A DNA stretch of 64,000 bases from Escherichia phage A4. Position 1 is the stretch's first letter, and each line of letters begins with the position of its first letter. Below the pieces are notes generated by a model. That model saw only the letters and a program-made list of their open reading frames with translations. It had not been told where the DNA came from and searched no databases. Where the stretch lies: sequence record ON286972; one strand, 5' to 3'. Shown here in pieces: positions 10,387 through 63,078 of this stretch. A program made the translations under genes and the position numbers.

Positions 10387-10646
10387 AAATTTTAGAATAC
10401 GTATATGGCAGTGAACATCAAAGCACTCTTTATGTTGGTAATGAATTCAGTCCAGACCCTCTGGATATGTTACAACGCATTCAAGGGTTGAAGAAAGATA
10501 TCAGTACTAAGGAACCGTTTGTTAAGCGTGTTGACGTTCAATCACGCAATCCAGAAGAATATATTACCACAGATGCTGATATTAAAAAACTTCTTGCAAA
10601 GAATGGTTATGTTGAGTATAATCCTCACATCGTCAATCTTCAATAA
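10383..10646 (+). CDS. hypothetical protein (87 aa)
   Basis: ORF track; ATGA overlap with upstream gene. Confidence 0.5.
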   Translation: MKILEYVYGSEHQSTLYVGNEFSPDPLDMLQRIQGLKKDISTKEPFVKRVDVQSRNPEEYITTDADIKKLLAKNGYVEYNPHIVNLQ

Positions 10647-15709: not shown

Positions 15710-16199
<490 letters not shown>

Positions 16200-16216
16200 T
16201 AATTAAAGGTTAAACC

Positions 16217-16595
<379 letters not shown>

Positions 16596-16596
16596 C

Positions 16597-17611
<1,015 letters not shown>

Positions 17612-17614
17612 TTC

Positions 17615-17770
<156 letters not shown>

Positions 17771-17798
17771 CAAAACGAAATGATAATAGGAAATTAAA

Positions 17799-17984
17799 AT
17801 GCAACTTTTAATTCTTTCAATATTGTATATTATTATAATGGTTCCTATATCAATACGTTTAATTATACTTGAACGATTTTTATCGAAACATGGAAATAGA
17901 TCTATGATATTTGTACCAATCGGGCTTATATTGTTTGGTATATTTGCATTTATAATGGGAATTAACGCTACATTCATTTCATAG
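17799..17984 (+). CDS. small membrane protein (61 aa)
   Basis: ORF track; two hydrophobic helices. Confidence 0.45.
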   Translation: MQLLILSILYIIIMVPISIRLIILERFLSKHGNRSMIFVPIGLILFGIFAFIMGINATFIS

Positions 17985-17993
17985 GAAACAAAT

Positions 17994-18475
<482 letters not shown>

Positions 18476-18482
18476 AAGAACG

Positions 18483-18515
<33 letters not shown>

Positions 18516-18516
18516 C

Positions 18517-18572
<56 letters not shown>

Positions 18573-18573
18573 T

Positions 18574-18780
<207 letters not shown>

Positions 18781-18874
18781 GGTTCAAGAAGAAAACTGGG
18801 GTTTTTAACCTAACGAGGTCAATATGAAAGTAAGTAAAGAAACAGCTAAACAGATTGAAGAACTCTGCACTGCT

Positions 18875-18913
<39 letters not shown>

Positions 18914-18914
18914 A

Positions 18915-18966
<52 letters not shown>

Positions 18967-18967
18967 A

Positions 18968-19098
<131 letters not shown>

Positions 19099-30210: not shown

Positions 30211-30239
30211 TTGACAGTACTGAAATATAGGAGTACAAT
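30211..30239 (+). promoter_or_regulatory. sigma70-type promoter
   Basis: TTGACA-N17-TACAAT. Confidence 0.5.
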
Positions 30240-31936: not shown

Positions 31937-32899
31937 GTGAAGAAACTAGACTTAAACGCAATTTCCGAAGAAGTACTGGATGAATGTTTTGCGAATGAAG
32001 AAGTCAATCCATTGGAAGCAATTGAACCATCAGAAGTTATTGAAGATGATATTCCACATAAAGTTCGTAGTAAAAGTAACATTAGTCTCAAGCGTCCAGT
32101 AGGTGTGACTAATGAATCCATCATCGAAGAGATTCGTGCTGGAATTAATGTAAAAAAGAACACTGACCTATTACTTCGTTATAACTATGGTATGATCGTT
32201 GATGTTGCTTCAAAGTGTACATGTTATATTCCGTTTGAAGATAAAATTGCATATGGTGTAGAAGGTTTTATGCGAGCACTTAAAACCTTTGATCTTAGTA
32301 AGAATGTCAAATTCATTACATATGCAACAACGTCCGTTTATATGACTATGTATAATGAAAGTTCAGATGCAAATTACATGGTGTACTTACCACGTTATAT
32401 GAGCGTTCATAACATCCAAGTACGTCGATTTAATGAATCATATCAACGTGAACACGGTAAGCGACCTACACCAGAATTAATCTCTGAGAGTACTGGTATC
32501 GAGCTTCAGCACGTTAAGAACTGTTTGTTATACCAGAATGCATATACGACTCTTGATGCACAACTGGGTTCAGATTCAGACGGAACCCTTGGGGATATTC
32601 TGAGTTCATCTGCTCGTGATTATAACCTTAATGTTGATAGCATTTGTAATCCATTACGTTATGCAATCACAGAAATCATTGACGAATTGAGTACTAAAGA
32701 ACGAGAAATTATCATGCGTGTTCATGGTCTTGGGGATTACAAAGCAGAAACCCTTCGTGAAATTTCTGATAATGGATATGTTGATGATAAAGGAAACATT
32801 GTTAAGTCCCGTTCATCTGTGCACCGAAAATATAGTGAAGCTATTCAAAAGCTTAAAAAAATAGTACTTGAAAAAGGGTACGAATACGAAGATTTCTAA
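31937..32899 (+). CDS. phage-encoded sigma70-family RNA polymerase sigma factor
   Basis: GTG start after AGGAG; region-2-like LLLRYNYGMIVDVA...FMRALKTFD...KFITYATTSVYM and region-4-like LSTKEREIIMRVHGL...TLREIS...SRSSVHRKYSEAIQKLKK. Confidence 0.75.
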   Translation: MKKLDLNAISEEVLDECFANEEVNPLEAIEPSEVIEDDIPHKVRSKSNISLKRPVGVTNESIIEEIRAGINVKKNTDLLLRYNYGMIVDVASKCTCYIPFEDKIAYGVEGFMRALKTFDLSKNVKFITYATTSVYMTMYNESSDANYMVYLPRYMSVHNIQVRRFNESYQREHGKRPTPELISESTGIELQHVKNCLLYQNAYTTLDAQLGSDSDGTLGDILSSSARDYNLNVDSICNPLRYAITEIIDELSTKEREIIMRVHGLGDYKAETLREISDNGYVDDKGNIVKSRSSVHRKYSEAIQKLKKIVLEKGYEYEDF

Positions 32900-32906
32900 A
32901 GAAAAA

Positions 32907-32934
32907 GGGTTGACTTAGGTCAGCCCTTTTTTTA
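32907..32934 (+). terminator. intrinsic terminator (GGGTTGAC-TTAG-GTCAGCCC hairpin)
   Basis: Same hairpin family as the downstream terminator/promoter cassettes, followed by TTTTTTT, no good -10. Confidence 0.6.
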
Positions 32935-33457
32935 TGGGACAAAATGGATGTTCATGATACAATGATATTGTACAATTCTGTTGGCATGGATGACATGAAC
33001 CTGATCCACTCGAAAATGTAGAGGGCAGTTGAGCAGTCCAGCAGTGCGAAGTGCAGAAGAAACCCGTCAGATGTGGGCATATTATGAACCCCTCACGGCA
33101 ATGCGGCACTATAAAGAACCACGTTAGGATGGCTGGTGGTTCCTCGATAGACATATAAGGATAACACCTTACGAATTATCTAAGGGAGAGTTATCAAATT
33201 TTGTACAGGAAAGTTGCGTCCAAAATTTGAGTACTCACATTAAGTATTTGATTGCATAGATACTTAATGAAGATACACTATGTTTAAAAGTGTAGACCGT
33301 CATATGAAACTGAAGTAGAGAGAAACAGGATGACCCGCTTTCGTACTCATTAAGAGTAATCTTCAATGCAATAGCTCTGATACCATCAGCGTCAAATTCC
33401 CCTCCCAGCGGGGGGAAGAAAAATCCCTTCCTCAAATCCCGTCAATATTAAAAGTCC

Positions 33458-33486
33458 TTGACAGTTATTAATCATTCGCGTAGAAT
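33458..33486 (+). promoter_or_regulatory. sigma70-type promoter
   Basis: TTGACA-N17-TAGAAT. Confidence 0.5.
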
Positions 33487-33550
33487 ACGTAGTATTAGAA
33501 GCGAACAGACATCTCGAAGAGATGGATGACTAACTATTAAGGAACATTCA

Positions 33551-33760
33551 ATGAATACTACAATCTTTTTAATTGTTGCTCTTTCAATGCAATCCGGTGT
33601 ACAAATTACCCCTATGAATTCATTAAACCAATGTTTTTCTGTACGTGATAGTACATACGAACAAGTAAACAAAAATTCTTGGATGACAGTTAGTGAAGAA
33701 CAAATGTGGTGTTACAAAAGTGATATTAAAGCGAAATTTATTGTAGGACAAACTCAATGA
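33551..33760 (+). CDS. small secreted or membrane protein (69 aa)
   Basis: ORF track; hydrophobic N-terminus; AAGGAA RBS. Confidence 0.45.
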   Translation: MNTTIFLIVALSMQSGVQITPMNSLNQCFSVRDSTYEQVNKNSWMTVSEEQMWCYKSDIKAKFIVGQTQ

Positions 33761-33951
33761 TTTATCGAGTGAGGTTTGAAGTTTGTAAAATTGTTTTCAA
33801 TAGCAAAGGTGAAGCCTCACTAGATGAAACTATGCACATATATAATCTCCAATTTAGGGCAAAAACAGAAGCTGATGCATTAGTAAACATGTTTAATTTC
33901 AACCATAGGTGCGGGTATCATTTAGTAAGAGTTATAGAGGTTAAAAAGTAA
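33757..33951 (+). CDS. hypothetical protein (64 aa)
   Basis: ORF track; ATGA overlap. Confidence 0.45.
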   Translation: MIYRVRFEVCKIVFNSKGEASLDETMHIYNLQFRAKTEADALVNMFNFNHRCGYHLVRVIEVKK

Positions 33952-33981
33952 TCACCGAATGCAGTGAAGAGGAAATCTAAA

Positions 33982-34245
33982 ATGAGTACTATCAATGCAT
34001 TCAAGCACTTAGACAAAGGTATCAAACACTTTGATGTTGAATGTTTAAATTCAGGTATGAATCGTTTAGTACAAATTTACATGAAATCGTTTATAGGTAT
34101 TGACAGTGCACGACTACCAGTATATAATTACTTTATTGAAAGCGTAGAAGGTGAATCACTTCGTGATTATGGTGAAAGATTTAATAAGAAAGTTTTCACT
34201 GCAATAGCAAATGAGATTCATTACTATAAACCCTATGTAATTTAA
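33982..34245 (+). CDS. hypothetical protein (87 aa)
   Basis: Track ORF 33964..34245 trimmed to ATG 33982 after AGAGGAAA. Confidence 0.45.
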   Translation: MSTINAFKHLDKGIKHFDVECLNSGMNRLVQIYMKSFIGIDSARLPVYNYFIESVEGESLRDYGERFNKKVFTAIANEIHYYKPYVI

Positions 34246-34259
34246 TTAGAGGAACTATC

Positions 34260-34427
34260 ATGCAAATCATTATCTTAATCGTTGGTATCGGTTTGGGCAT
34301 CTATGGACATTCATGGGTAACTGAGAAGTTTCCTGACACCCGTCCAGATTACTGTACAACTAAAACAGAAAGTACTGAAAGTATTGGAACTAAGATCGAT
34401 AAAGTAATCGAGGTGATTAAACAATGA
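34260..34427 (+). CDS. small membrane protein (55 aa)
   Basis: Not in track; AGAGGAA RBS; hydrophobic MQIIILIVGIGLGIYG; followed by two 26-27 aa hydrophobic micro-ORFs at 34424..34504 and 34727..34810. Confidence 0.35.
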   Translation: MQIIILIVGIGLGIYGHSWVTEKFPDTRPDYCTTKTESTESIGTKIDKVIEVIKQ

Positions 34428-34515
34428 TGAAACTTAATATATTTCTGGTTGTATTCACTGTCGTTGTTATCGGTATTGGTGCACTGGCATATATCCAACC
34501 TTAAAGGAAAAATAA

Positions 34516-34716
34516 ATGTTTAAATCGAATACAAATGTTGGTAAGCAGGTTCAATTACTTGAAGACGTATCCACTATGAGTGGAACCTTCACTAAAGGTC
34601 ACATCATGACTATTATTGCCGAAACATCCCGTGGCTGGGACTTGGAAGATGCTGATGGTAATCGCATCCTTGAGGCTGGCTTCTATGGTCATCGTGAATA
34701 TAAAATTATCGATTAA
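34516..34716 (+). CDS. hypothetical protein (66 aa)
   Basis: ORF track; AAAGGAAA RBS. Confidence 0.45.
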   Translation: MFKSNTNVGKQVQLLEDVSTMSGTFTKGHIMTIIAETSRGWDLEDADGNRILEAGFYGHREYKIID

Positions 34717-34812
34717 GGATATAACATGATGTTAGAGGCTATCGTTGGTATTATTAGTTTAGTCGTCTGTGTAGGTTGGTTTGGGTATCTGATGATTTTT
34801 GGCGATTAATAC

Positions 34813-34840
34813 TTGACATAAGATATCAGTACTGTATAAT
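34813..34840 (+). promoter_or_regulatory. sigma70-type promoter
   Basis: TTGACA-N16-TATAAT with cagtactg spacer. Confidence 0.55.
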
Positions 34841-34884
34841 GTTTATATCAACGACACCCACTTTAACAAATAATAGGAAATATT

Positions 34885-35163
34885 ATGTCTTTTACCAAAG
34901 AAGAACGTGACCTTATTAAAAAAGCAATCTGGTTTTATGCTAATGAAGGGGAGTGCGATGAAGAAAAAGCACGTGAACTGTGTAATATCCTTGAGCAGAA
35001 ACAAGAACTGAAAGTTTATCGTATCCGTGTTTTGGATGACGGGGATCGTATTGTCCTAGCTGAAACAAAAGAAGAAGCAGAACAAATCTTCACTGATAAA
35101 AACGAAAATCCACATTGGATGGAAGAAGTCTGTGAAGTAAAAAAAGGTACTTATATCGATTGA
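34885..35163 (+). CDS. hypothetical acidic protein (92 aa)
   Basis: ORF track; TGA stop sits inside the next -35 (TTGACT). Confidence 0.5.
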   Translation: MSFTKEERDLIKKAIWFYANEGECDEEKARELCNILEQKQELKVYRIRVLDDGDRIVLAETKEEAEQIFTDKNENPHWMEEVCEVKKGTYID

Positions 35164-35188
35164 CTGTACTGAATAATAGCAGTATAAT
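35160..35188 (+). promoter_or_regulatory. sigma70-type promoter followed by long leader hairpin
   Basis: TTGACT-N17-TATAAT, then 13-bp stem GGGAATGCAGTGA...GTCACTGCGTTCCC at 35200-35250. Confidence 0.5.
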
Positions 35189-35281
35189 GTTTATATCAAA
35201 GGGAATGCAGTGAAAGGAAAGACAGCATAATCGTACTCGTCACTGCGTTCCCGCCCTTTTAAATTAAATGAGGAATTAACT

Positions 35282-35590
35282 ATGTTTCAAACTAACACTC
35301 AAGGTTTTGTAATCATCGATTTGAATCAAAACAGCGGTTATTGGATGAAACCTACTGACGCATGTATGCAGTTTGATTTCTTAGGTTACAGAATTAGTGT
35401 AAGTACTGGTGCTTCTGTACTGCGTGGTGGTTGTATCGTTGAACATCTGGTAACTGATCCAGAAGGTCGTGAGTATGAAATCGCAGGTTCAGTACAAGAT
35501 GCCATTATGTTTGTATGTCAGCGTGAAATGAATGGTTCGAATTCAAATGCACTGACTCATGCTCTTTCTCAAGAAGTGGAGGTTCGTTAA
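35282..35590 (+). CDS. hypothetical protein (102 aa)
   Basis: ORF track; GAGGAA RBS. Confidence 0.5.
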   Translation: MFQTNTQGFVIIDLNQNSGYWMKPTDACMQFDFLGYRISVSTGASVLRGGCIVEHLVTDPEGREYEIAGSVQDAIMFVCQREMNGSNSNALTHALSQEVEVR

Positions 35591-35835
35591 TGAAATATAT
35601 TGTAGCAGTACTAATTGCTTTCCTACTCACTGCATGTGATGCTTCAACAAAAGAACGAACTGGTGAGTTTGTTTTACCAACTGAACTCAAAGAAGCAGGG
35701 TGTAAGATTTATCGTATGCAACAGGAAGGTGCAGGTGCAACTTTGTACACTGTTTACTGTCCTAATGCAAACACTACTACGTCTTATATGAGTGGTAAAG
35801 TTCGCGTGGATACATCTGTGGTTCATGGAGAATAA
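35590..35835 (+). CDS. small lipoprotein (lipobox LLTAC)
   Basis: ORF track; N-terminus MKYIVAVLIAFLLTAC. Confidence 0.5.
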   Translation: MKYIVAVLIAFLLTACDASTKERTGEFVLPTELKEAGCKIYRMQQEGAGATLYTVYCPNANTTTSYMSGKVRVDTSVVHGE

Positions 35836-35837
35836 CA

Positions 35838-36206
35838 ATGAGTCTTGATACTACTCGTTCGGCAAATATCTTGGAACGTTTGAATGATGAAGAATATCTT
35901 GCTAATGCAAAATATCAGCTTGAAAAACTCATTCGAAATGTAAAATATGTTGATATCACTACACAGCTTCCACTAGATGAATATCACAAGTTAAACGAAG
36001 ATATTGTATATCACCCAAATGAAATTTGGATTGAGTGGGAATCATGGACTCATTCGGTTCTCCGTATCGAAGGATATTGTGTGAAATATGAAAGTTCACC
36101 AGGTGATTTTACAAAAAAACTGTCGATATTGTGCACTGACACACATGAAATAGTTGAGGTGAATTTGAATCATATGAAGGGTTGCCGTTGGGGAGATGTT
36201 AAATGA
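35838..36206 (+). CDS. hypothetical protein (122 aa)
   Basis: ORF track. Confidence 0.5.
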   Translation: MSLDTTRSANILERLNDEEYLANAKYQLEKLIRNVKYVDITTQLPLDEYHKLNEDIVYHPNEIWIEWESWTHSVLRIEGYCVKYESSPGDFTKKLSILCTDTHEIVEVNLNHMKGCRWGDVK

Positions 36207-36478
36207 TTAAAAAACTCTTGACGGTGTTTGTTGTATTCTGTACAATGTTTCTTACAGCATGTAATGATGACGGCAGGTTCAGTGCAAAAGACTTAGTTCG
36301 TCAGGATTGTACATTCACAGGTAAGTCTTTTATTAACGAATATGAAATATGTACACAAGCAGGACGTATTTGTGGGGGTTGGGAAAAACGTCAGGAGCGT
36401 CTGTATGTATATGATTGTCCAGGACACCTCAACAAAGTACTAAGCACACACAAACTTGTTTATGATAAGGTTGAATAA
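36203..36478 (+). CDS. small lipoprotein (lipobox FLTAC)
   Basis: ORF track; N-terminus MIKKLLTVFVVFCTMFLTAC. Confidence 0.5.
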   Translation: MIKKLLTVFVVFCTMFLTACNDDGRFSAKDLVRQDCTFTGKSFINEYEICTQAGRICGGWEKRQERLYVYDCPGHLNKVLSTHKLVYDKVE

Positions 36479-36687
36479 TGACTACCAATGAAATGATGCA
36501 GGTTATTTGGAATAAAGGTTGTGATATTAAAATCACTAGTACTGATGTTCGTGTATTCAAAACTGAATACATGGAATACTTGGACCTTGATACTTATAAT
36601 AATATTGTATCAATTGAACACAAAGGTGCAGTACTGGAAACAATTGACGTTGTTCTCAAGAAAGCAACGGATTTATTGGGAGCATAA
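36478..36687 (+). CDS. hypothetical protein (69 aa)
   Basis: ORF track. Confidence 0.45.
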   Translation: MTTNEMMQVIWNKGCDIKITSTDVRVFKTEYMEYLDLDTYNNIVSIEHKGAVLETIDVVLKKATDLLGA

Positions 36688-36688
36688 G

Positions 36689-36835
36689 GTGAACAATAAA
36701 GAATGGGAAGAGTACCGCAAGAAGTGCCGAGAGTTTGATAAAGAACTCACTGGTACTGTGAACGCAGTAATGTGGGTATCTGCAATAATTGCAGTACTGG
36801 GACTGTTTGCAGTTATCATTAATAAGTTTTTTTGA
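36689..36835 (+). CDS. small C-terminally membrane-anchored protein (48 aa)
   Basis: Track ORF 36521..36835 overlaps upstream gene; trimmed to GTG 36689 after GGAG. Confidence 0.35.
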   Translation: MNNKEWEEYRKKCREFDKELTGTVNAVMWVSAIIAVLGLFAVIINKFF

Positions 36836-36844
36836 GGAATACAC

Positions 36845-37045
36845 ATGTTTACTTTATATCTAGCTGTAGTACTAACAAATGGTGAAATCACACGTACATT
36901 CGGTGATGGTGTATATAAAACACCTGAGCAGTGTTATTCTGCGACACACTGGCCTCGTGATGCTGGTGACGAAACTCGTACCGAATACAAATGTATGAAG
37001 GTCAAAGGTGACTTTGTTAACCTTAAGGTCATTGAGGTGAAGTAG
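36845..37045 (+). CDS. hypothetical protein (66 aa)
   Basis: ORF track; GAGGAA RBS. Confidence 0.45.
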   Translation: MFTLYLAVVLTNGEITRTFGDGVYKTPEQCYSATHWPRDAGDETRTEYKCMKVKGDFVNLKVIEVK

Positions 37046-37551
37046 TGAATCTTAGTACTGATAAGTTTGTAAAGTTCATAGAGTTTATCAATTTCAATGA
37101 GAGCTACAATGGTACGTACAATACTATGAATATTGTATCTGATAAAGTATTTGATAGTACAATGTTCTATTTGTATGATACAAACGGTGATAAGCTGTGT
37201 GATGTTACATTCGGTATTGGTGATCTTTTTGAATCTGCGGTTTATCTATCTAAACCAACGGTGCGTGATACATATGAAATTCACTTTCATAATAGACCGA
37301 ATCACAAAAACATTGTAGAATATGATATACCATCATCACACGAACTGTTCATTGTAGATTACAGTACTGAAGAGGGTGTATTTCAAAGTTCATTGCTATA
37401 CAACTTTGAACTACACGATCCTGATATTCCTAAAGTACTGGCAATTTCGAATAAGGTATGTGAATTGCCATATAACATATACATGTCAGTTCCTGGTAAA
37501 AGAGTAGGTAATTTCTGTAAAGCCTTTGACATACAAGCGGATGATAAATGA
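37045..37551 (+). CDS. FQ-motif paralog family protein
   Basis: ORF track (GTG start); TEEGVFQSSL. Confidence 0.55.
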   Translation: MNLSTDKFVKFIEFINFNESYNGTYNTMNIVSDKVFDSTMFYLYDTNGDKLCDVTFGIGDLFESAVYLSKPTVRDTYEIHFHNRPNHKNIVEYDIPSSHELFIVDYSTEEGVFQSSLLYNFELHDPDIPKVLAISNKVCELPYNIYMSVPGKRVGNFCKAFDIQADDK

Positions 37552-37772
37552 ACAGATACGTGATTGAATACGTGGGTATATCTGAATTTGATAACATTCG
37601 TGGCTATGAAAAGGTCATGAGTGAACGCACGATATATGTTAGGGGTCGCGATGAAGCCCATGTTCTCTCTTTACTGTTAAATGACCTGACAAAGTTCAAT
37701 ACAACAAAGACACAACGTTATATTGAAACAATTAAATCTATTAAACTTTTAGACGAGGATGATGAAGAATGA
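37548..37772 (+). CDS. hypothetical protein (74 aa)
   Basis: ORF track; ATGA overlap. Confidence 0.45.
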   Translation: MNRYVIEYVGISEFDNIRGYEKVMSERTIYVRGRDEAHVLSLLLNDLTKFNTTKTQRYIETIKSIKLLDEDDEE

Positions 37773-37981
37773 ATTTATATCTAGTAGAAGGTACAGTGCA
37801 GGTTTTCCGTTTTGATGGTGATCGTGGTATGCGTTTCTCACATGTTGAAGAATTTAAATTTGTCGTACATGCAGAAGGTGAGTACGAAGCTGAGATTAAA
37901 GTATCTGAATCCTTTGATAAGAAAGAAACCGTAGATGTACAGTATCAGCAACTACAATTTAAAGTGTGGCCTACGCTTTAA
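37769..37981 (+). CDS. hypothetical protein (70 aa)
   Basis: ORF track; ATGA overlap. Confidence 0.45.
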   Translation: MNLYLVEGTVQVFRFDGDRGMRFSHVEEFKFVVHAEGEYEAEIKVSESFDKKETVDVQYQQLQFKVWPTL

Positions 37982-37985
37982 AAAC

Positions 37986-38014
37986 TTGACACGCATGTAA
38001 AAAGCGAGTATTAT
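37986..38014 (+). promoter_or_regulatory. sigma70-type promoter
   Basis: TTGACA-N17-TATTAT. Confidence 0.5.
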
Positions 38015-38045
38015 ATCTGTATTATGAATTAACTGAGGAATACGT

Positions 38046-38711
38046 ATGCTCGCCAATTTAAGTTACATTATTAGTGATGATATGGTACAAAGTCGTGGGA
38101 TGTATCTTGAGAAAGTTCCATACGATAGCGATGGTATCAAAGGAACTTTATACGAAAGTCGTTTTGACAGAAAGCATCCATTCTGGGAAAAGGCTAATCT
38201 AACGGAAGAAGATAGTAATCGTTTATTTTGTGCTGTGCAGACACCTACACCTGGTATATTAGCGGGTTATGGTATAGATAAAGTCATTAACTTTATGACA
38301 GACTATGAAGTTATTGAACGTCTTCAATATATTAATACGAACAATGGTGAGTTCTATAATTCTGATGATTTTCTTGCTATGTGTAGTGCTTCATATGAGA
38401 GTGAATTATTGCCAAGTGGTAGACCATTCCCATTGTCAACACATTGTAATTCCCCTTACGGTGTAGCTGACAACTTACAGCAGATCCTTAAGAAACATAA
38501 GAATGTTCTTACATCTGAAATGGAAGTTGTTATTGGATTTCATCCAGTGTACAAGGAAGATCAACCTGAACATGGTGGGTGGCGTTGGCATAAGCACGGC
38601 ACATACATTGGTACTCATAAGAAAAAGCATGAGTACTTGTATGATGAAGAAGGTATTGATGTTGTTTATTGTTACGAACTAATCCCAGTAAAGAAAAAGG
38701 AAACACTATAA
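38046..38711 (+). CDS. hypothetical protein (221 aa)
   Basis: ORF track; GAGGAA RBS. Confidence 0.55.
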   Translation: MLANLSYIISDDMVQSRGMYLEKVPYDSDGIKGTLYESRFDRKHPFWEKANLTEEDSNRLFCAVQTPTPGILAGYGIDKVINFMTDYEVIERLQYINTNNGEFYNSDDFLAMCSASYESELLPSGRPFPLSTHCNSPYGVADNLQQILKKHKNVLTSEMEVVIGFHPVYKEDQPEHGGWRWHKHGTYIGTHKKKHEYLYDEEGIDVVYCYELIPVKKKETL

Positions 38712-38953
38712 TGTTAATTTTATACGTTGTACTGATTTTATTAGTTAACTTTTCTCCAACTATTTTAACTTTAGTATGGGGTAAATTTTATGATGCTGTA
38801 AAAGTATTTCTCTTGAATACTGCATGGGTATTGGTAAGTCTGACTCTTTATTGGTCTACTGATTGGATGATGATTGTGAGTCATATACTACTATATATTT
38901 CATTCCTAATGTTGTTCCAAGAAAAAGAAGTACTTGACAAACTTGAAGGTTAG
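38711..38953 (+). CDS. small integral membrane protein (80 aa)
   Basis: Track ORF 38669..38953 trimmed to ATG 38711 overlapping upstream stop. Confidence 0.45.
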   Translation: MLILYVVLILLVNFSPTILTLVWGKFYDAVKVFLLNTAWVLVSLTLYWSTDWMMIVSHILLYISFLMLFQEKEVLDKLEG

Positions 38954-38962
38954 ACCTATAAT
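38934..38962 (+). promoter_or_regulatory. sigma70-type promoter
   Basis: TTGACA-N17-TATAAT inside the 3' end of the upstream gene. Confidence 0.5.
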
Positions 38963-38985
38963 ATCCTTCTACTAAGGGGGATATT

Positions 38986-39246
38986 ATGGCAGTAGGTTTT
39001 GGTTCACCTGATAACCACCAAGAAACAATACAAGCAACAATTGATAATGCTATTGACTTTGCTCGCTCAAATCTGTATAGTGGTGAGTCTGAAGAGTACT
39101 GCATCGACTGTGACTGTGAGATACCAGAGAAGCGGAGGTTAGTACTGAAGGGTGTAAAACGATGTGTTCAGTGTCAATCAAAGGTTGACAAGGTATATCA
39201 AGAGCGTTATAATAGACGTGGAAGTAAAGACAGCCAACTCCGTTAA
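38986..39246 (+). CDS. TraR/DksA-family C4 zinc-finger protein
   Basis: CIDCDCEIPEKRRLVLKGVKRCVQCQ...YQER matches the TraR signature (CEACGNPIPEARRKIFPGVTLCVECQAYQER). Confidence 0.8.
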   Translation: MAVGFGSPDNHQETIQATIDNAIDFARSNLYSGESEEYCIDCDCEIPEKRRLVLKGVKRCVQCQSKVDKVYQERYNRRGSKDSQLR

Positions 39247-39266
39247 ATTAATATGAGGAACTACTA

Positions 39267-39599
39267 ATGTTATCATTTATTCTTTCTATCCCTTGTTTTG
39301 TTCTTCTTTTTGTATTACTTTTTGAAGCATTCCAGAAAGATGAAGAAGTTAAAAATGACCTACGTAAACTATTCAATCTGGATAGTCCAGTAGTTAGGAT
39401 CTTTTATGTTTTAGTATGTGTGTATGCGGTTGTGTGGCTATTGGGCTTTTTATTACCACTATCTACTGTACTTGCATGGATTTCCGTTGTTGAAAATTTA
39501 GTAGCTATTGTATGGTTTATTCAATGTTTGTTTAGTGGTTTGGTTTCTGATTGGATTTTCTTACTTAAAATGAAGTTTAAATCAAAATCTGATAAGTAA
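39267..39599 (+). CDS. integral membrane protein (110 aa)
   Basis: ORF track; hydrophobic helices. Confidence 0.5.
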   Translation: MLSFILSIPCFVLLFVLLFEAFQKDEEVKNDLRKLFNLDSPVVRIFYVLVCVYAVVWLLGFLLPLSTVLAWISVVENLVAIVWFIQCLFSGLVSDWIFLLKMKFKSKSDK

Positions 39600-39690
39600 T
39601 AACCAAGTACTCATATAAAATACAGAATAGTATTAAATACTTGTGTACTAGTTAAGTACGCAAGTATTTTTTTATTATTTTGAGGTTAAT

Positions 39691-40056
39691 ATGGGAAAGC
39701 TTACAATTATAATAGCCATGATAATGGCACTTAATGTTATGCCAGTTGAAGCTAACGAGGACGTTGCGTGGTTCGATTGCATAGGAAATGATGGACAGTG
39801 GCATACGTTTTCCAGTGATCCATATAATGGTACTGATATACTAATAGATGGTGAAAATTATCGTTTTGTTAGTGAAAGTAAAATTGGCAACAAAAAGGTA
39901 TCGACATTTAGAACTGATTCTGGTATAATTGCTAATGTCATAATGATAGTTGATCCTGAAAATAATACAGGGGATATATATGTAGTGGTTTACCGTGATC
40001 ATTCCAATAAAAGAAGTCTGGATCTTGATAAACTTCATTTACATTGTCAAATATAA
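39691..40056 (+). CDS. secreted hypothetical protein (signal peptide)
   Basis: ORF track; MGKLTIIIAMIMALNVMPVEA; paralog of 40442..40795. Confidence 0.5.
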   Translation: MGKLTIIIAMIMALNVMPVEANEDVAWFDCIGNDGQWHTFSSDPYNGTDILIDGENYRFVSESKIGNKKVSTFRTDSGIIANVIMIVDPENNTGDIYVVVYRDHSNKRSLDLDKLHLHCQI

Positions 40057-40070
40057 TTTAAGGTAAATCT

Positions 40071-40445
40071 ATGTTCAATAGTATCATTGGGTTCTCATTA
40101 GTACTTCCACAAATCATTTTTGGTATTTGTTTTGTAACTTTTATGATGGGGTCAATCTATGGTATATGGTATTACATTTTAAAACAATCAGATGGAATCA
40201 TTTTAAAAATAACAATGCATTTTGATGTGGATTCACCAGCATGGAATTCATCTATTATTACCAATACATTGTATTTTATGATGATCATTTTGGAACAATT
40301 GGGATTTGTATCTAATAGTAATGTTTCTATGACCGCAGGTATGGCAAGTATTTGTTGTTTGTGGTATATTGTTTATAAGATTGATGTGTTGTATAATATG
40401 TATCGTGAAATGGTATTGAACAGAGATATGCAGAGGAAAAAATGA
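40071..40445 (+). CDS. integral membrane protein (124 aa)
   Basis: ORF track. Confidence 0.5.
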   Translation: MFNSIIGFSLVLPQIIFGICFVTFMMGSIYGIWYYILKQSDGIILKITMHFDVDSPAWNSSIITNTLYFMMIILEQLGFVSNSNVSMTAGMASICCLWYIVYKIDVLYNMYREMVLNRDMQRKK

Positions 40446-40795
40446 TGAAAGTTATATTATTTTTTATGTGTATTATTATGTGTGGTGTCTCTTATGCTGC
40501 ACCCTTAGCCGGATTGCTTTGTAAAGAGAATTCTGAACAACACATATTCCAAGGGGATTCAGATGACCTTGATATCATTTACATCGATGGTACTGAATAT
40601 ACATACGTTAAAGACCATACTGTTGGTGATATCAGTTTCACTGAATATGCAAAAACAGGTGACACTGATTATAGAGCCTACCTTCAAGTGAATATGATAG
40701 AGGGTGAAGACGGAACACAAGAAGTCAAACTCGTACTTAAACGTATTGGAGATAAGGAGGCTGATTTTGGAGGTGAGTGTACATATGATGATTGA
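40442..40795 (+). CDS. secreted hypothetical protein, paralog of 39691..40056
   Basis: ORF track; signal peptide; shared DG.EY...G pattern. Confidence 0.5.
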   Translation: MMKVILFFMCIIMCGVSYAAPLAGLLCKENSEQHIFQGDSDDLDIIYIDGTEYTYVKDHTVGDISFTEYAKTGDTDYRAYLQVNMIEGEDGTQEVKLVLKRIGDKEADFGGECTYDD

Positions 40796-40803
40796 TTAAA
40801 AAA

Positions 40804-40836
40804 GGTTGACTAACGTCAGCCTTTTTTGTTATACTG
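40804..40836 (+). promoter_or_regulatory. terminator/promoter cassette (hairpin containing -35, T-tract, -10)
   Basis: GGTTGAC-TAAC-GTCAGCC hairpin, TTTTTT, TATACT; TTGACT -35 lies inside the stem. Confidence 0.55.
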
Positions 40837-40844
40837 ATCCCAAT

Positions 40845-40970
40845 ATGCTTGCATTTCTTCAAGTTGATGTATATGAAGAAAGTAATGGCGAACAGTATGT
40901 TAAACTTGTGATGATGCGTAAGGCAGCAAAACAGGCAACATTCGGTGGCTTGTGTAAATATGAGGACTAA
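40845..40970 (+). pseudogene. truncated copy of the C-terminus of the 40442..40795 gene family (41 aa)
   Basis: LQVDVYEESNGEQYVKLVMMRKAAKQATFGGLCKYED versus LQVNMIEGEDGTQEVKLVLKRIGDKEADFGGECTYDD. Confidence 0.4.
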
Positions 40971-40974
40971 ACAT

Positions 40975-41166
40975 ATGTTGATTTATCAATGTGATAACAT
41001 TCGTGTTATACAGCATCCCTACTTACAAATCTTTGATGTGCAGCAGTATATGGAAGGTGATGACCCAAGAACCTATGGTCGTAAGTATGATTACTTCACT
41101 GTAAAGCAGTGTCGTAACATCAAAGAAGTACGACAATTAGTTCAAGAACTTCAAAATAAAGGTTGA
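40975..41166 (+). CDS. hypothetical protein (63 aa)
   Basis: Track ORF 40945..41166 trimmed to ATG 40975 after GAGGA. Confidence 0.45.
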   Translation: MLIYQCDNIRVIQHPYLQIFDVQQYMEGDDPRTYGRKYDYFTVKQCRNIKEVRQLVQELQNKG

Positions 41167-41193
41167 CTTCGGTCAGCCTTTTTTGTTATAATC
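41161..41193 (+). promoter_or_regulatory. terminator/promoter cassette
   Basis: GGTTGAC-TTCG-GTCAGCC hairpin, TTTTTT, TATAAT; the TGA stop of the upstream gene is inside the hairpin. Confidence 0.6.
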
Positions 41194-42521: not shown

Positions 42522-42527
42522 ACTACG

Positions 42528-42559
42528 GGGTTGACATAAGTCAGCCCTTTTGTATAATG
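42528..42559 (+). promoter_or_regulatory. terminator/promoter cassette
   Basis: GGGTTGAC-ATAA-GTCAGCCC, TTTT, TATAAT; -10 ends only 8 nt before ATG 42567. Confidence 0.55.
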
Positions 42560-43588: not shown

Positions 43589-43812
43589 TGAAAAGGTATA
43601 AAATTGAATACCTACTTAAAGTAAGAGAGAAAAGTATTAGTAGTGAGAAATACACCAGTGAGATATTCGTCAGAGATGAGTATTACATTGGTGAAAATGA
43701 AGTTGAAGTACTGTTACAATGCATAGAAAATGAATTTCAAGATATGACACGTTATATGTCATTTGAGATATCGTGTGCAAAAGTTACATTCTTGAACAAT
43801 ACTTCATATTAA
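43585..43812 (+). CDS. hypothetical protein (75 aa)
   Basis: ORF track; ATGA overlap. Confidence 0.45.
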   Translation: MMKRYKIEYLLKVREKSISSEKYTSEIFVRDEYYIGENEVEVLLQCIENEFQDMTRYMSFEISCAKVTFLNNTSY

Positions 43813-43816
43813 AAAA

Positions 43817-43856
43817 GGGTTGACTTTTGTTGACCCTTTTTGCTATTCTATAAATA
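43817..43856 (+). promoter_or_regulatory. terminator hairpin with degenerate promoter region (TATAAATA box)
   Basis: GGGTTGAC-TTTT-GTTGACCC hairpin, T-tract, then CTATTCTATAAATATAG. Confidence 0.45.
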
Positions 43857-43902: not shown

Positions 43903-45441
43903 ATGCCAGGTAAATTCACTGACAAAAACGGCGGCAATATGGCTGGACACTCTGATAAATGGAGTGATGAGAATCGTCGCAAAAATAGTTTCCAAGCGGG
44001 GCAAGGTTCCCGTGGCTCTCGCAACCAAGGAACGGGAGAAGCTGGGAAAGCAAACACAGTTGCATCACAGGGTCTTGATACTTCAAACATGTCCCAGCAT
44101 GAAAAATTGAAGTACTTCAATAGTCTTGGTCTTTTAAATCCGCAGCAGAAGCAACAACTTGCTGCACTGGATAAAGCACAAGAACAACCTAAAGCAGCAC
44201 CAGAAGCACCTGCACAGCCTAAAGCGGCTAATCCGGTAAAAGAACTAAGTGATAAACTTGGGAAGATCTTTGCTAACAAACCACAACTAATTCAAGGTAT
44301 CGTAAAAGCACTTCAAGCGGTTCCTAAAGAACAACTCAAGGATAAAGCACAAGCTGTTCTTGATAGTATGAAAGGGAATACCAGTACTGAACCAACTGAA
44401 GTATTCAGTACTATCATGCGTGCACTTGAAGGTAAGCCACAGGCTGATGATGATATTGAGTTTGATGAACCTGCACAAGAAGTAGCAAATCTTGACTCAA
44501 TCGTTTCTACATTTGGAAAAATTGGTGCAGAAGATAAGACTAATGCACAACAAGTTAAGAATGTACAAGCTAAGTTACAAAATCGTCTTGAAGGTAAAGA
44601 TGAAAAGATTAAACTTGCAGCAGATGCGTTGAAGAAAGCATTAGAATCATATAAACCTGGTGAGAAATCTCGCTTCATTACTGCAATGAATGCAGTATTC
44701 GGTGCAATGAAGAAGTATGAAGCTGAACACGGTGAGAAAGTAACTCCTGATGGATATCTCCTTCGCAAAGATGAAGAAGGTGCTGTTGACCAGAAGGACG
44801 CTGAACCAGACTATGGTAATTTACCAGATACAGTTGATATGGATGGTTACATTCATCGTCCTGATATGCAAGAATTTGGTTCAGACAAAGAAGGTTTTGA
44901 ACATGCTATGGCTGTGTACAAAGCATTAGTCGATAATCCACAATATGCAAATAGTTTTGTAGATGAGTTTGATAGTGCATGGAACAACTACCAAGACAAA
45001 GGATATGATTTCCCAGCAGAAGCAGCATTCTTTGAACTAGGTAAACTTCTTGCTAAAAATGGTATTAATGTTGGTTCTAATGGTGAAGCAAACACTTCAG
45101 AAATGGACGCTGAATTGGCTAAAGATCGTGAAATGACTGATAAGTCAATTCATGAACTACAAAAGCTAATGATGTGGATTGCTGAAATTGGCAAGAAAGC
45201 TGGTGCAGATCCTAAGAGCATTAACAGCAATATTAGTTGGATTAAACATAAGGTTGATAACAATGCCCGTAAATTACAAAAGGCATGGACCGACCTAGTG
45301 AATGGTGCAGACGATGTTGATATCGATTCACCAGAAGCATACGAGTACGCATTGAACACACTTGATAACTCTTTCAAGGATTACGAAAATGGTAACGTAA
45401 CTGATTGGGAAAAGGATATCATGCATAAGTACGGTAAATGA
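43903..45441 (+). CDS. hypothetical Lys/Ala/Glu/Gln-rich protein (512 aa)
   Basis: ORF track; GGAGAG RBS; codon usage richer in GC than neighbours; low-complexity N-terminus. Confidence 0.6.
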   Translation: MPGKFTDKNGGNMAGHSDKWSDENRRKNSFQAGQGSRGSRNQGTGEAGKANTVASQGLDTSNMSQHEKLKYFNSLGLLNPQQKQQLAALDKAQEQPKAAPEAPAQPKAANPVKELSDKLGKIFANKPQLIQGIVKALQAVPKEQLKDKAQAVLDSMKGNTSTEPTEVFSTIMRALEGKPQADDDIEFDEPAQEVANLDSIVSTFGKIGAEDKTNAQQVKNVQAKLQNRLEGKDEKIKLAADALKKALESYKPGEKSRFITAMNAVFGAMKKYEAEHGEKVTPDGYLLRKDEEGAVDQKDAEPDYGNLPDTVDMDGYIHRPDMQEFGSDKEGFEHAMAVYKALVDNPQYANSFVDEFDSAWNNYQDKGYDFPAEAAFFELGKLLAKNGINVGSNGEANTSEMDAELAKDREMTDKSIHELQKLMMWIAEIGKKAGADPKSINSNISWIKHKVDNNARKLQKAWTDLVNGADDVDIDSPEAYEYALNTLDNSFKDYENGNVTDWEKDIMHKYGK

Positions 45442-59254: not shown

Positions 59255-59318
59255 ATATCCTCCTTTATTCATTATATTATATTTAATCAAAAAAGAAAAG
59301 CCAGTACAGAGTACTGGC
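59255..59318 (-). promoter_or_regulatory. repeated intergenic cassette: terminator hairpin, TATAAT box, AGGAGG RBS
   Basis: Minus-strand read: GCCAGTACTCTGTACTGGC, T-tract, GATTAAATATAATATAATGAATAAAGGAGG, ATG; near-identical at four sites. Confidence 0.5.
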
Positions 59319-59329
59319 ATTTAAAATAA

Positions 59330-60505: not shown

Positions 60506-60569
60506 AATTCCTCCTTTATTCATTATACTATATTTAATCAAAAAAGAAATGCCAGCATCAAGTACTGGC
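60506..60569 (-). promoter_or_regulatory. repeated intergenic cassette (terminator, TATAAT, RBS)
   Basis: Hairpin GCCAGTACTTGATGCTGGC, T-tract, TATAGTATAATGAATAAAGGAGG. Confidence 0.5.
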
Positions 60570-60576
60570 ATTATTG

Positions 60577-61767: not shown

Positions 61768-61832
61768 ATTTCCCTCCTTTATTCATTATACTATATTTAA
61801 TCAAAAAAGAAAAGCCAGTATCAAGTACTGGC
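61768..61832 (-). promoter_or_regulatory. repeated intergenic cassette (terminator, TATAAT, RBS)
   Basis: Hairpin GCCAGTACTTGATACTGGC, T-tract, TATAGTATAATGAATAAAGGAGGG. Confidence 0.5.
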
Positions 61833-61838
61833 CTATAT

Positions 61839-63008: not shown

Positions 63009-63072
63009 AATTCCTCCTTTATTCATTATATTATATTTAATCCAAATAAGAAAGCCAGTATCAAGTACTGGC
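63009..63072 (-). promoter_or_regulatory. repeated intergenic cassette (terminator, TATAAT, RBS)
   Basis: Hairpin GCCAGTACTTGATACTGGC, T-tract, TATAATATAATGAATAAAGGAGG. Confidence 0.5.
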
Positions 63073-63078
63073 ATTGTG

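What the first reader, a model, noticed from the sequence alone, without database searches (positions are those of the whole stretch)
31937..39246. Phage-encoded sigma70-family sigma factor together with a TraR/DksA zinc-finger protein
ORF 31937..32899 has recognisable sigma region 2 and region 4 segments, and ORF 38986..39246 carries the CxxC-N17-CxxC TraR signature. Both are RNA-polymerase-targeting factors, suggesting a host-RNAP reprogramming toolkit. The propeller-gene cassettes have a TATAAT-like box without a -35 and are candidate targets of the phage sigma.
Basis: partly seen in the sequence, partly recalled or inferred. Interest (0 to 1): 0.6.

Follow-up and report, generated by a model that had tools for sequence, protein, structure and literature searches.

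The report
Jumbo-phage early sigma and YbiI-like genes
A giant E. coli phage carries, in its early gene block, a divergent sigma factor and a YbiI-type (DksA/TraR-family) zinc-finger protein; both were already annotated in related phages, the propeller genes look like late genes read by a different phage sigma, and a previously undescribed 460-nt structured RNA sits right after the sigma gene.

Summary
Both ORFs are real and the family assignments hold. ORF 31937-32899 is a sigma70-family protein with regions 2, 3 and 4. ORF 38986-39246 is a C4 zinc-finger protein of the DksA/TraR family. The window is a 121Q/RaK2-like jumbo myophage. RpoD-like sigma genes are routinely annotated in this clade and already discussed as host-takeover genes, so the core finding is known.

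Refinements:
- The zinc-finger protein is YbiI-type, not TraR-type. It lacks the DxxDxA motif needed for TraR activity and carries an invariant C-terminal tail that TraR lacks.
- The sigma lacks the W433/W434 pair and has an 8-residue insertion in its region 4.2 helix-turn-helix. It should not read sigma70 promoters.
- Both genes lie in an early block packed with host sigma70 consensus promoters.
- The propeller-cassette TATAAT is the downstream half of a bipartite late-type element (TAAATA-N3-GTATA). Capsid, sheath and baseplate genes of a relative share this element. The clade also encodes a conserved T4 gp55-like late sigma, which is the likelier reader.

The RpoD-like sigma's own promoters were not found.

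Unexpected: a ~460-nt structured RNA lies directly downstream of the sigma gene. It has strong covariation, 3-5 copies per genome, is restricted to this clade and has no Rfam match.

The parts
30211..30239 (+). Host sigma70-type promoter (TTGACA-17-TACAAT), nearest promoter upstream of the five-ORF run that ends with the sigma gene
   Evidence: No other 11/12 or better promoter and no listed terminator lies between it and the sigma gene. Use of this promoter for the sigma gene is inferred.
31937..32899 (+). Divergent sigma70-family sigma factor (conserved acidic N-terminal segment plus regions 2, 3 and 4)
   Evidence: The N-terminus MKKLDLN..EVLDECF is conserved across the clade, which supports the GTG start.
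32907..32933 (+). Intrinsic terminator after the sigma gene (GGGTTGAC-TTAG-GTCAGCCC followed by a T run)
   Evidence: Sequence read. The equivalent hairpin is annotated as a terminator in phage G17.
32955..32963 (+). Extended -10 promoter (TGATACAAT, no -35) in front of the structured RNA
   Evidence: All four paralogs in the relative have TGATATAAT or TGCTATAAT at the same relative place.
32998..33455 (+). Large structured non-coding RNA of a family restricted to this jumbo-phage clade, with no Rfam match
   Evidence: covariation and distribution; no Rfam family.
38934..38962 (+). Perfect sigma70 consensus promoter (TTGACA-17-TATAAT), 24 nt upstream of the YbiI-like start codon
38986..39246 (+). 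YbiI-type DksA/TraR-family C4 zinc-finger protein
59259..59284 (-). Propeller-cassette upstream element (TAAATA-N3-TATAAT plus RBS), assigned here to the late-type promoter class
60510..60535 (-). Propeller-cassette upstream element, second copy
61773..61798 (-). Propeller-cassette upstream element, third copy, preceded by a terminator hairpin
63013..63038 (-). Propeller-cassette upstream element, fourth copy
43849..43856 (+). T4-late-type TATAAATA, 46 nt upstream of the virion structural protein gene 43903-45441. It is the only exact TATAAATA in the window.

Best explanation
The interval is part of the early, host-sigma70-driven region of a 121Q/RaK2-like jumbo myophage that relies on host RNA polymerase. 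It encodes two proteins expected to act on that polymerase. (1) A divergent sigma70-family sigma, the last gene in a run of five ORFs between promoter 30211 and terminator 32907-32933. Made early, it should bind host core RNAP and direct it to phage promoters that host sigma70 does not read, most likely a post-early (middle) class. This is inferred from its altered region 2.3/2.4 and region 4.2; the target promoters were not identified. (2) A YbiI-type DksA/TraR-family zinc-finger protein with its own perfect sigma70 promoter. It has the TraR fold and keeps the globular-domain motif that in TraR contacts the rim of the RNAP secondary channel and Si3. It probably binds RNAP there and modulates initiation, but with a different N-terminal tip, so its effect need not be TraR's. 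The propeller (RCC1-like) cassettes are not this sigma's likely targets. They carry the late-type bipartite element and are most likely read by the clade's gp55-type late sigma. Shown: the family and fold assignments, the early-promoter context, the synteny and the promoter-class membership. Inferred: RNAP binding, timing and targets.
For: Sigma family. Sigma residue anatomy: across the clade sigma70 W433/W434 is replaced by T/S/A (TYATTSVYMTM against TYATWWIRQAI); an 8-residue insertion sits inside the region 4.2 HTH; the recognition helix reads RSSVHR instead of RERIRQ. Early context: 37 promoters matching at least 11 of 12 sigma70 consensus positions on the + strand, 0 on the - strand, about 3.5 expected per strand; 9 perfect sites against 0.13 expected. 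YbiI-type assignment: NF008243 99.8 bits against cutoff 96; PDB 2kgo 2e-16. Alignment A1 shows IPExRR..GV..CxxCQ conserved with TraR, including E48 and R51, which correspond to TraR E46 and R49 (residue roles from PMC6970531). The AlphaFold model (pLDDT 74) superimposes on RNAP-bound TraR with TM 0.69-0.72 and rmsd 2.1-2.4 A. YbiI overexpression was reported to rescue dksA auxotrophy, though as data not shown (PMC2613031). Five phage TraR homologs bind RNAP and reprogram transcription (PMC9239242). Conserved linkage: the YbiI-like gene lies 0.7-7 kb downstream of the sigma gene, on the same strand, in RaK2, K64-1, BF, Yen9-04 and Erwinia phages. Cassettes are late-type: TAAATA-N3-5-TATA is found at 14 of 42 oriented intergenic TAAATA sites against 4% of sites in coding DNA (p about 1e-9). 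It sits upstream of tail fiber, baseplate wedge, sheath, major head and other virion genes. 12 cassette copies fall in an array free of sigma70 promoters. A gp55-type sigma is present in a T4-like 55-47-46 gene order.
Against: There is no experimental evidence for any member of this sigma clade. Pfam region 2 and region 4 scores fall just under or under their cutoffs. Loss of the Trp pair could impair promoter melting. No distinct promoter class attributable to this sigma was found. The YbiI-type protein lacks DxxDxA, and DksA-family proteins without it have been reported inactive (PMC9239242, section 18). E. coli YbiI was suggested to be linked to iron metabolism (PMC2613031). The model's N-terminal helix is shorter than TraR's (residues 10-28 against 2-27). 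The closest relatives do without a YbiI-like gene at this locus. The gp55-like gene was shown only in relatives; it lies outside this window.
Confidence: 0.68

Rival explanations
1. One reading: the RpoD-like phage sigma recognises -10-only (TATAAT, no -35) promoters, and the propeller-gene cassettes are its regulon.
For: The cassettes have an exact TATAAT and no -35. The sigma's region 4.2 is aberrant, which fits -35-independent recognition. No other promoter class could be assigned to it.
Against: The same TAAATA-N3-(G)TATA arrangement precedes capsid, sheath, baseplate and fiber genes. T4 gp55 reads TATAAATA-type promoters (established knowledge; cited in PMC5259590), and a conserved gp55-type sigma is present in the clade. 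The sigma's region 2.3/2.4 is too divergent to assume TATAAT recognition. The identity of the cassette boxes to one another is explained by tandem duplication.
Confidence: 0.13
2. The YbiI-type protein is not an RNAP secondary-channel regulator. Its conserved MAxGF N-terminus and invariant YNRRGSKDSQLR tail serve another target, for example metal or iron homeostasis or another nucleic-acid enzyme. Its proximity to the sigma gene is only shared residence in the early block.
For: DxxDxA is absent; the family-specific N-terminus and C-terminal tail are absent from TraR. The TraR subfamily models score below cutoff (TIGR02419 50.2 against 59.7; NF010268 23 against 108). YbiI was thought more likely to be linked to iron metabolism (PMC2613031). 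DksA-family proteins lacking the key motifs are inactive (PMC9239242). Homologs are widespread in T4-like phages that do not appear among the sigma matches.
Against: The TraR-like fold and the conserved G-domain motif, including the Si3-contact residues (PMC6970531). The reported multicopy rescue of dksA auxotrophy by YbiI (PMC2613031).
Confidence: 0.3
3. The RpoD-like protein acts mainly as a competitor or decoy: it occupies core RNAP, or titrates a host factor, to shut down host sigma70 transcription rather than directing a dedicated promoter class.
For: No dedicated promoter class was found. The melting residues W433/W434 are lost and the -35 reading head is altered. It evolves quickly (33-73% identity within the clade), as expected for a host-interaction protein.
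Against: All three DNA-reading domains are retained, along with many conserved region 2 positions (F..TYA). CBB shows a divergent RpoD-like promoter class upstream of DNA-synthesis genes (PMC5259590). Known phage sigmas direct transcription.
Confidence: 0.1

Closest known systems
RpoD-like sigma factors annotated in Rak2-like ('Group 2') jumbo phages: 121Q gp167, G17_00146, RaK2 ORF244, CBB_513, Sharanji WNN14470
   Same: Orthologous gene in the same syntenic position in the early region (73% identity to 121Q, 42% to RaK2, 33% to CBB). [quoted passage not shown]
   Different: Only 73% identical to the nearest described genus. No member of this group has been characterised experimentally.
E. 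coli YbiI (PDB 2kgo; NCBIfam NF008243) and the phage 'DksA-like zinc-finger protein' family (PHROG 54)
   Same: Full-length match above the curated cutoff. Shares the MAxG(F/W) N-terminus, the C4 finger and the YNRRGSKDSQLR tail. tblastn matches in 703 phage records.
   Different: Encoded by a phage and driven by a perfect early promoter. 45% identical to E. coli YbiI. The bacterial members keep a D-x-A remnant of the TraR motif, whereas the jumbo-phage members have D-N-(H/F).
F-plasmid TraR and lambda Orf73
   Same: Same Pfam family and the same three-part fold (TM about 0.7 to RNAP-bound TraR). Conserved IPExRR..GV..CxxCQ. A mobile-element protein expressed early to retune host transcription (PMC9239242).
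   Different: No DxxDxA. The N-terminal helix is about 7 residues shorter and preceded by a Gly/Pro-rich tip. An extra 13-residue invariant tail. Below the TraR model cutoffs. Sits in a strictly lytic jumbo phage.
T4 transcription programme (host sigma70 for early genes; gp55 with gp33 and the clamp for late TATAAATA promoters)
   Same: Early block with sigma70 consensus promoters. Late TAAATA-type promoters in front of structural genes. gp55-type sigma in a 55-47-46 gene order.
   Different: T4 has no RpoD-like sigma; its middle transcription uses MotA/AsiA (established knowledge). Here the late element is bipartite (TAAATA-N3-(G/C)TATA), and an additional full-length sigma70-family protein is present.

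Membership tests
sigma70 family | Region 2 (core binding, -10 recognition and melting) | tested here: met
   Pfam r2 23.4 bits (cutoff 24, marginal), but TIGR02393 2.3e-26 over residues 79-283 and SigA chains at 3e-18. F126, T128, Y129 and A130 are invariant in alignment A2.
sigma70 family | Region 3 | tested here: met
   Pfam Sigma70_r3 43.7 bits against cutoff 25.3.
sigma70 family | Region 4.2 helix-turn-helix that reads the -35 element | tested here: inconclusive
   Pfam r4 17.8 bits against cutoff 24.1, covering only the first half. Alignment A2 shows an 8-residue insertion in the HTH turn and changed contact residues, conserved across the clade.
sigma70 family | Binds core RNAP and confers promoter-specific initiation | not testable with these tools
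   Requires biochemistry. No experimental report was found.
Primary (group 1, RpoD) sigma | Equivalog-level similarity, region 1.1/1.2, and the W433/W434 melting pair | tested here: not met
   RpoD_Cterm 92.8 bits against cutoff 354. WW is replaced by TS. The N-terminus is a clade-specific acidic segment.
DksA/TraR C4 zinc-finger family (PF01258) | CxxC-N17-CxxC zinc finger scoring above the curated cutoff | tested here: met
   C39, C42, C60 and C63. 31.7 bits against cutoff 24.9.
TraR subfamily | N-terminal DxxDxA motif (D3, D6, A8), critical for function | tested here: not met
   The window has ..GSPDNH.. in that position; only one Asp (D9) is conserved. Motif requirement from PMC9239242.
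TraR subfamily | Scores above the TraR model cutoffs | tested here: not met
   TIGR02419 50.2 against 59.7; NF010268 23 against 108.
TraR subfamily | Three-element fold (N-terminal helix, Zn globular domain, C-terminal helix) | tested here: met
   AF2 model has helices at 10-28, 48-53 and 61-69. Foldseek to 6n57_M and 5w1s_M gives TM 0.69-0.72 and rmsd 2.1-2.4 A. The model has moderate confidence (pLDDT 74).
YbiI type (NF008243) | Full-length match above cutoff; MAxG(F/W) N-terminus; YNRRGSKDSQLR C-terminus | tested here: met
   99.8 bits against cutoff 96 over residues 1-86. 2kgo 2e-16. Nearly invariant columns in alignment A1.
T4-type late promoter class (for the propeller cassettes) | TAAATA core 30-55 nt upstream of the start codon, no -35, shared with structural genes; a gp55-type sigma encoded by the phage | tested here: met
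   Cassette TTAAATATAG against ATAAATATAG at 43850. Class defined in a relative. gp55-type gene found in the relative and in CBB. Not testable for this phage itself, because the gene would lie outside the window.
Any Rfam family (for the RNA at 32998-33455) | Covariance-model match | tested here: not met
   Nothing at gathering threshold. Nothing relevant at E up to 1-3 on the window copy or on eight further copies.

The most novel reading that the evidence does not exclude
The ~460-nt structured RNA immediately downstream of the sigma gene is a functional partner in transcription takeover, for example an RNAP- or sigma-binding regulatory RNA. It has its own -35-independent extended -10 promoter, and a paralog lies about 5 kb from the gp55-like late-sigma gene in two genera. 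On this reading the sigma, the YbiI-type factor and the RNA together form a three-component module that reprograms host RNA polymerase. Separately from that functional guess, the RNA is very probably (about 0.85) a new class of large structured ncRNA specific to this jumbo-phage clade.
Probability: 0.08. Interest if true: 0.85.

Novelty: new member of a known kind. Interest (0 to 1): 0.35.

Why it matters
The sigma plus DksA-like pairing adds little on its own. Both genes are routinely annotated in this clade, and the takeover idea has been in print since 2017.

What this analysis adds:
- The zinc-finger protein belongs to the uncharacterised YbiI branch, which lacks the TraR catalytic-site motif. 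It is also widespread in large lytic phages (tblastn matches in 703 records). Testing one member would settle the function of E. coli YbiI and of a common phage gene at once.
- The clade has two sigmas. The sequence-based assignment gives late and propeller genes to the gp55-like one and leaves the RpoD-like one without known promoters. That is a well-defined experiment for jumbo-phage transcription.
- A covariation-supported, multi-copy 460-nt RNA family with no known relatives was found next to the sigma gene. It may be the most interesting object in this interval.

Tried and rejected
- tblastn with T4 gp55 against the Asteriusvirus genome and the window found nothing. Using CBB_244 as an intermediate probe solved this.
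- The CBB 'TGAAACG...TATA' middle-promoter motif is not enriched here: one TGAAACG per strand in the window and no consistent arrangement in the relative.
- K-mer and gapped-dyad searches for a third promoter class found no class I could assign to the RpoD-like sigma. They recovered two things. One was the TGnTATAAT boxes that belong to the ncRNA genes. The other was a uniform AAAAAGTACTTGCA-N16-GTATAATGTTTTACAT class, confined to a small-ORF block at 301-321 kb of the relative, outside this window's span.
- CBB_511, the 'transcriptional regulator' next to the CBB sigma, is an HTH_37 protein and not a TraR homolog.
- For the RNA: Rfam found nothing at either gathering or permissive thresholds. 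The single-sequence MFE z-scores are unremarkable (-1.5 and -2.2), so the evidence rests on covariation and not on stability.
- The four PA5oct lncRNAs are not detectably related to the RNA family (best E 0.03 at 2.3 bits).
- My first IMG/VR pattern had the wrong gap length and returned zero hits. It was corrected after a local check.
- I considered hammerhead, RNase P and group I intron identities from motif resemblance and dropped them, because no model supports them.
- I did not run a deep homolog search or a structure prediction for the sigma. Neither would change the verdict.

Full report
**What the window is.** The window has 31-38% GC. Over 31.4-37.0 kb it is about 85% identical in nucleotide sequence to Asteriusvirus jumbo myophages such as 121Q, PBECO4, G17 and SHEFM2K. 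No record in the phage collection reaches 90% identity. A near-identical sibling sits as a 357,761-bp contig in an E. coli assembly (GCA_012813795.2); its YbiI-like protein is 99% identical and its sigma 99.4% identical. The literature places this clade ('Group 2' jumbo phages) among phages that encode no RNA polymerase but do encode sigma factors (PMC7824862).

**Observation check.** Both ORFs exist as described.
- ORF 31937-32899 (320 aa, GTG start behind an AGGAG RBS) matches Pfam Sigma70_r3 above its cutoff, Sigma70_r2 just below and Sigma70_r4 below. It also matches PHROG 351 at 2e-50, NCBIfam RpoD_Cterm at 2e-26 and solved SigA/RpoD/RpoS chains down to 3e-18.
- ORF 38986-39246 (86 aa) has CxxC-N17-CxxC at C39/C42/C60/C63. 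It passes Pfam zf-dskA_traR and matches PHROG 54.
- The cassette box is real: four copies, with none in shuffled sequence.

**The sigma.** I aligned it with clade orthologs and with E. coli RpoD and RpoS taken from MG1655.
- It has a sigma2-sigma3-sigma4 architecture behind a clade-specific acidic N-terminus (MKKLDLN..EVLDECF).
- In every clade member the region 2.3 tryptophan pair (sigma70 W433/W434) is replaced by small residues. The window reads TYATTSVYMTM where sigma70 reads TYATWWIRQAI; one search shows the same against SigA.
- An 8-residue insertion, conserved across the clade, splits the region 4.2 helix-turn-helix. The recognition helix reads RSSVHR instead of RERIRQ.
- It is far below every RpoD or RpoS equivalog cutoff.

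It is therefore a divergent alternative sigma, not a primary sigma, and should not read TTGACA/TATAAT promoters as sigma70 does (inference). The gene is the last in a run of five ORFs between a sigma70-type promoter at 30211-30239 and a terminator at 32907-32933. G17 annotates the equivalent terminator.

**The zinc-finger protein.**
- It scores above the curated cutoff of NF008243, the YbiI model, and below both TraR models. Among solved structures it matches YbiI (2kgo) at 2e-16 and TraR only at 1e-3.
- An alignment of 26 homologs plus YbiI and TraR shows the family traits: a conserved MAxG(F/W) N-terminus, a single conserved Asp where TraR has DxxDxA, the shared IPExRR..GV..CxxCQ core, and a nearly invariant C-terminal YNRRGSKDSQLR that TraR lacks.
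- DxxDxA is critical for TraR and lambda Orf73 (PMC9239242), and family members without it have been found inactive (same paper, section 18).
- In favour of RNAP binding, E48 and R51 correspond to TraR E46 and R49, which contact beta' Si3 (PMC6970531). An AlphaFold model (pLDDT 74; helices at 10-28, 48-53 and 61-69) superimposes on RNAP-bound TraR with TM 0.69-0.72.
- YbiI overexpression reportedly rescues dksA auxotrophy, but as data not shown (PMC2613031).

My judgement is that binding at the RNAP secondary channel is likely and TraR-like output is unproven.

**Genomic context.**
- The + strand of the window carries 37 promoters matching at least 11 of 12 sigma70 consensus positions, against 0 on the - strand and about 3.5 expected per strand. 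Nine are perfect, against 0.13 expected.
- One perfect promoter (38934-38962) lies 24 nt before the YbiI-like ATG. Both genes are therefore early genes read by host sigma70 (inference from sequence).

**Linkage of the two genes.**
- The YbiI-like gene lies 0.7-7 kb downstream of the sigma gene, on the same strand, in RaK2 (where it is unannotated), K64-1, BF, Yen9-04 and Erwinia phages.
- It is missing from the syntenic slot in 121Q and G17. It is also missing within 6-9 kb of the sigma gene in Turkey3, CBB and XaC1.
- The Asteriusvirus genome encodes only a 40%-identical relative elsewhere, with a different C-terminus.
- Many T4-like phages appear to have the gene without the RpoD-like sigma, judging from the organism lists of the two searches. 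The pairing is conserved synteny within an early block, not an obligate module.

**The propeller cassettes.**
- The minus-strand ORFs at 54.7-64 kb are RCC1-like paralogs. Each cassette has the order terminator hairpin, TTAAATATA(G/A)TATAAT, RBS, ATG(MLPFV).
- I assembled a complete Asteriusvirus genome (OR844650.1). The element occurs 12 times there, only in its RCC1 array. That array has no sigma70-type promoters, whereas 113 such promoters follow the coding strand elsewhere.
- De novo k-mer analysis of oriented intergenic regions gave N-TAAATA as the main non-sigma70 signal.
- These sites are often followed 3-5 nt later by TATA, usually preceded by G or C: 14 of 42 sites against 4% in coding DNA, p about 1e-9.
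- They precede tail fiber, baseplate wedge, tail sheath, major head and other virion genes. The 536-aa fiber gene has TAAATA-TAG-TATATA, almost the cassette sequence.
- The window's own two structural genes carry TATAAATA or ATAAATA upstream.
- The clade also encodes a gp55-type late sigma. CBB_244 is followed by gp47- and gp46-like genes, as in T4. Its Asteriusvirus ortholog is 74% identical. Both hit T4 gp55's own PHROG at 1e-18.

The cassette 'TATAAT' is therefore best read as the downstream half of a late promoter, and the gp55-like factor is the likelier reader. This rests on analogy with T4 and has not been shown.

**The sigma's own promoters.** I could not find them. CBB's divergent -35 class (PMC5259590) has no counterpart here.

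**Unexpected finding.**
- The 650-nt ORF-free stretch after the sigma terminator is almost invariant among the window, 121Q and Turkey3, although the sigma protein is only 62-73% identical among the same phages. The few differences fall in hairpin loops.
- It matches 70 phage records, all from this clade, at 3-5 places per genome and about 70% identity between genera.
- The complete relative has four copies, all on the transcribed strand.
- RNAalifold on nine diverged copies gives 60 pairs, 26 of them with compensatory double changes.
- Controls: 95% of cells paired against 34-45% when partners are slid, and 0 of 500 shuffles reach the observed values.
- With 34 distinct copies: 95.8% paired, 34 of 56 pairs with double changes, and 198 G.U against 23 A.C cells, which fixes the strand.
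- Each paralog has an extended -10 promoter with no -35.
- One paralog lies about 5 kb from the gp55-like gene in both Asteriusvirus and CBB.
- No Rfam family matches, and the PA5oct lncRNAs are unrelated. Its function is unknown.

**Verdict.** The 'TraR' label should be changed to YbiI-type. The link between the cassettes and this sigma is not supported. As a sigma plus DksA-like pair this is a new member of a known, already annotated kind. The adjacent RNA family is the novel object.

Noticed in passing
window 32998-33455 (+), with promoter 32955-32963: A ~460-nt structured non-coding RNA family with no Rfam match. It has 3-5 paralogs per genome, is restricted to RaK2/121Q/CBB/BF-type jumbo phages, shows strong covariation (34 copies: 95.8% paired, 34 of 56 pairs with double changes, 198 G.U against 23 A.C cells), and each copy has its own TGnTATAAT extended -10 promoter. 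Function unknown.
   Followed up: yes
L015:28317-28786 (Asteriusvirus OR844650.1, 128.3 kb) and L022:24464-24969 (CBB): One paralog of the RNA lies about 5 kb from the gp55-like late sigma gene in two genera. HNH or homing endonuclease genes lie within about 1 kb of three of the four copies in the Asteriusvirus genome. The significance is unknown.
   Followed up: partly
window 4647-6545 (+): A C5 cytosine DNA methyltransferase gene interrupted by an intein (Hint plus LAGLIDADG domains between the methylase halves).
   Followed up: no
window 16019-19088 (+): A cluster of six tRNA genes (Ser-tga, Gly-tcc, Ser-gct, Met-cat, Asn-gtt, Thr-tgt).
   Followed up: no
window 42527-42558, 41158-41192, 43812-43841, 32907-32933: Terminator hairpins whose stem contains the TTGAC -35 hexamer. 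In at least 42527-42558 and 41158-41192 this hexamer is the -35 of the promoter that starts the next transcription unit, giving compact terminator-promoter junctions throughout the early block.
   Followed up: no
window 37055-40850: A segment at most about 70% identical in nucleotide sequence to Asteriusvirus, while both flanks are about 87% identical. It is a mosaic early segment and contains the YbiI-like gene.
   Followed up: partly
window 33964-34245 (+): A 93-aa ORF that is the C-terminal remnant of an HNH endonuclease (47% identical to 121Q gp170 residues 181-258). The gene is full length in 121Q, and a 264-aa gene occupies the same position in the sibling contig.
   Followed up: yes
L018-L019 (OR844650.1, 301-321 kb), outside the window's span; one example in the window at 10594: About 20 copies of a very uniform promoter-like element, AAAAAGTACTTGCA-N16-GTATAATGTTTTACAT, in front of small ORFs. 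It is a second early-type class distinct from the TTGACA class.
   Followed up: partly
OR844650.1 309495-309713 (-): Asteriusvirus phages lack the YbiI-like gene next to the sigma gene but encode a 40%-identical DksA/TraR-type protein elsewhere. It has the MAVGF N-terminus but a different C-terminus.
   Followed up: partly
window 57902-63170 (-): The mechanically listed ORFs of three RCC1-like cassettes are over-extended at the 5' end, into the terminator hairpin. The real starts are the ATG(MLPFV) codons behind the AAAGGAGG RBS.
   Followed up: yes
window 39691-40056, 40442-40795, 40806-40970 (+): Small paralogous ORFs. The first two have signal-peptide or lipoprotein-like N-termini, and they share motifs just downstream of the YbiI-like gene.
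   Followed up: no
L003 (GCA_012813795.2, contig AATHYQ020000001.1, 357,761 bp): A near-identical sibling of this phage is deposited as a contig of an E. coli genome assembly, with its proteins labelled as E. coli proteins.
   Followed up: partly
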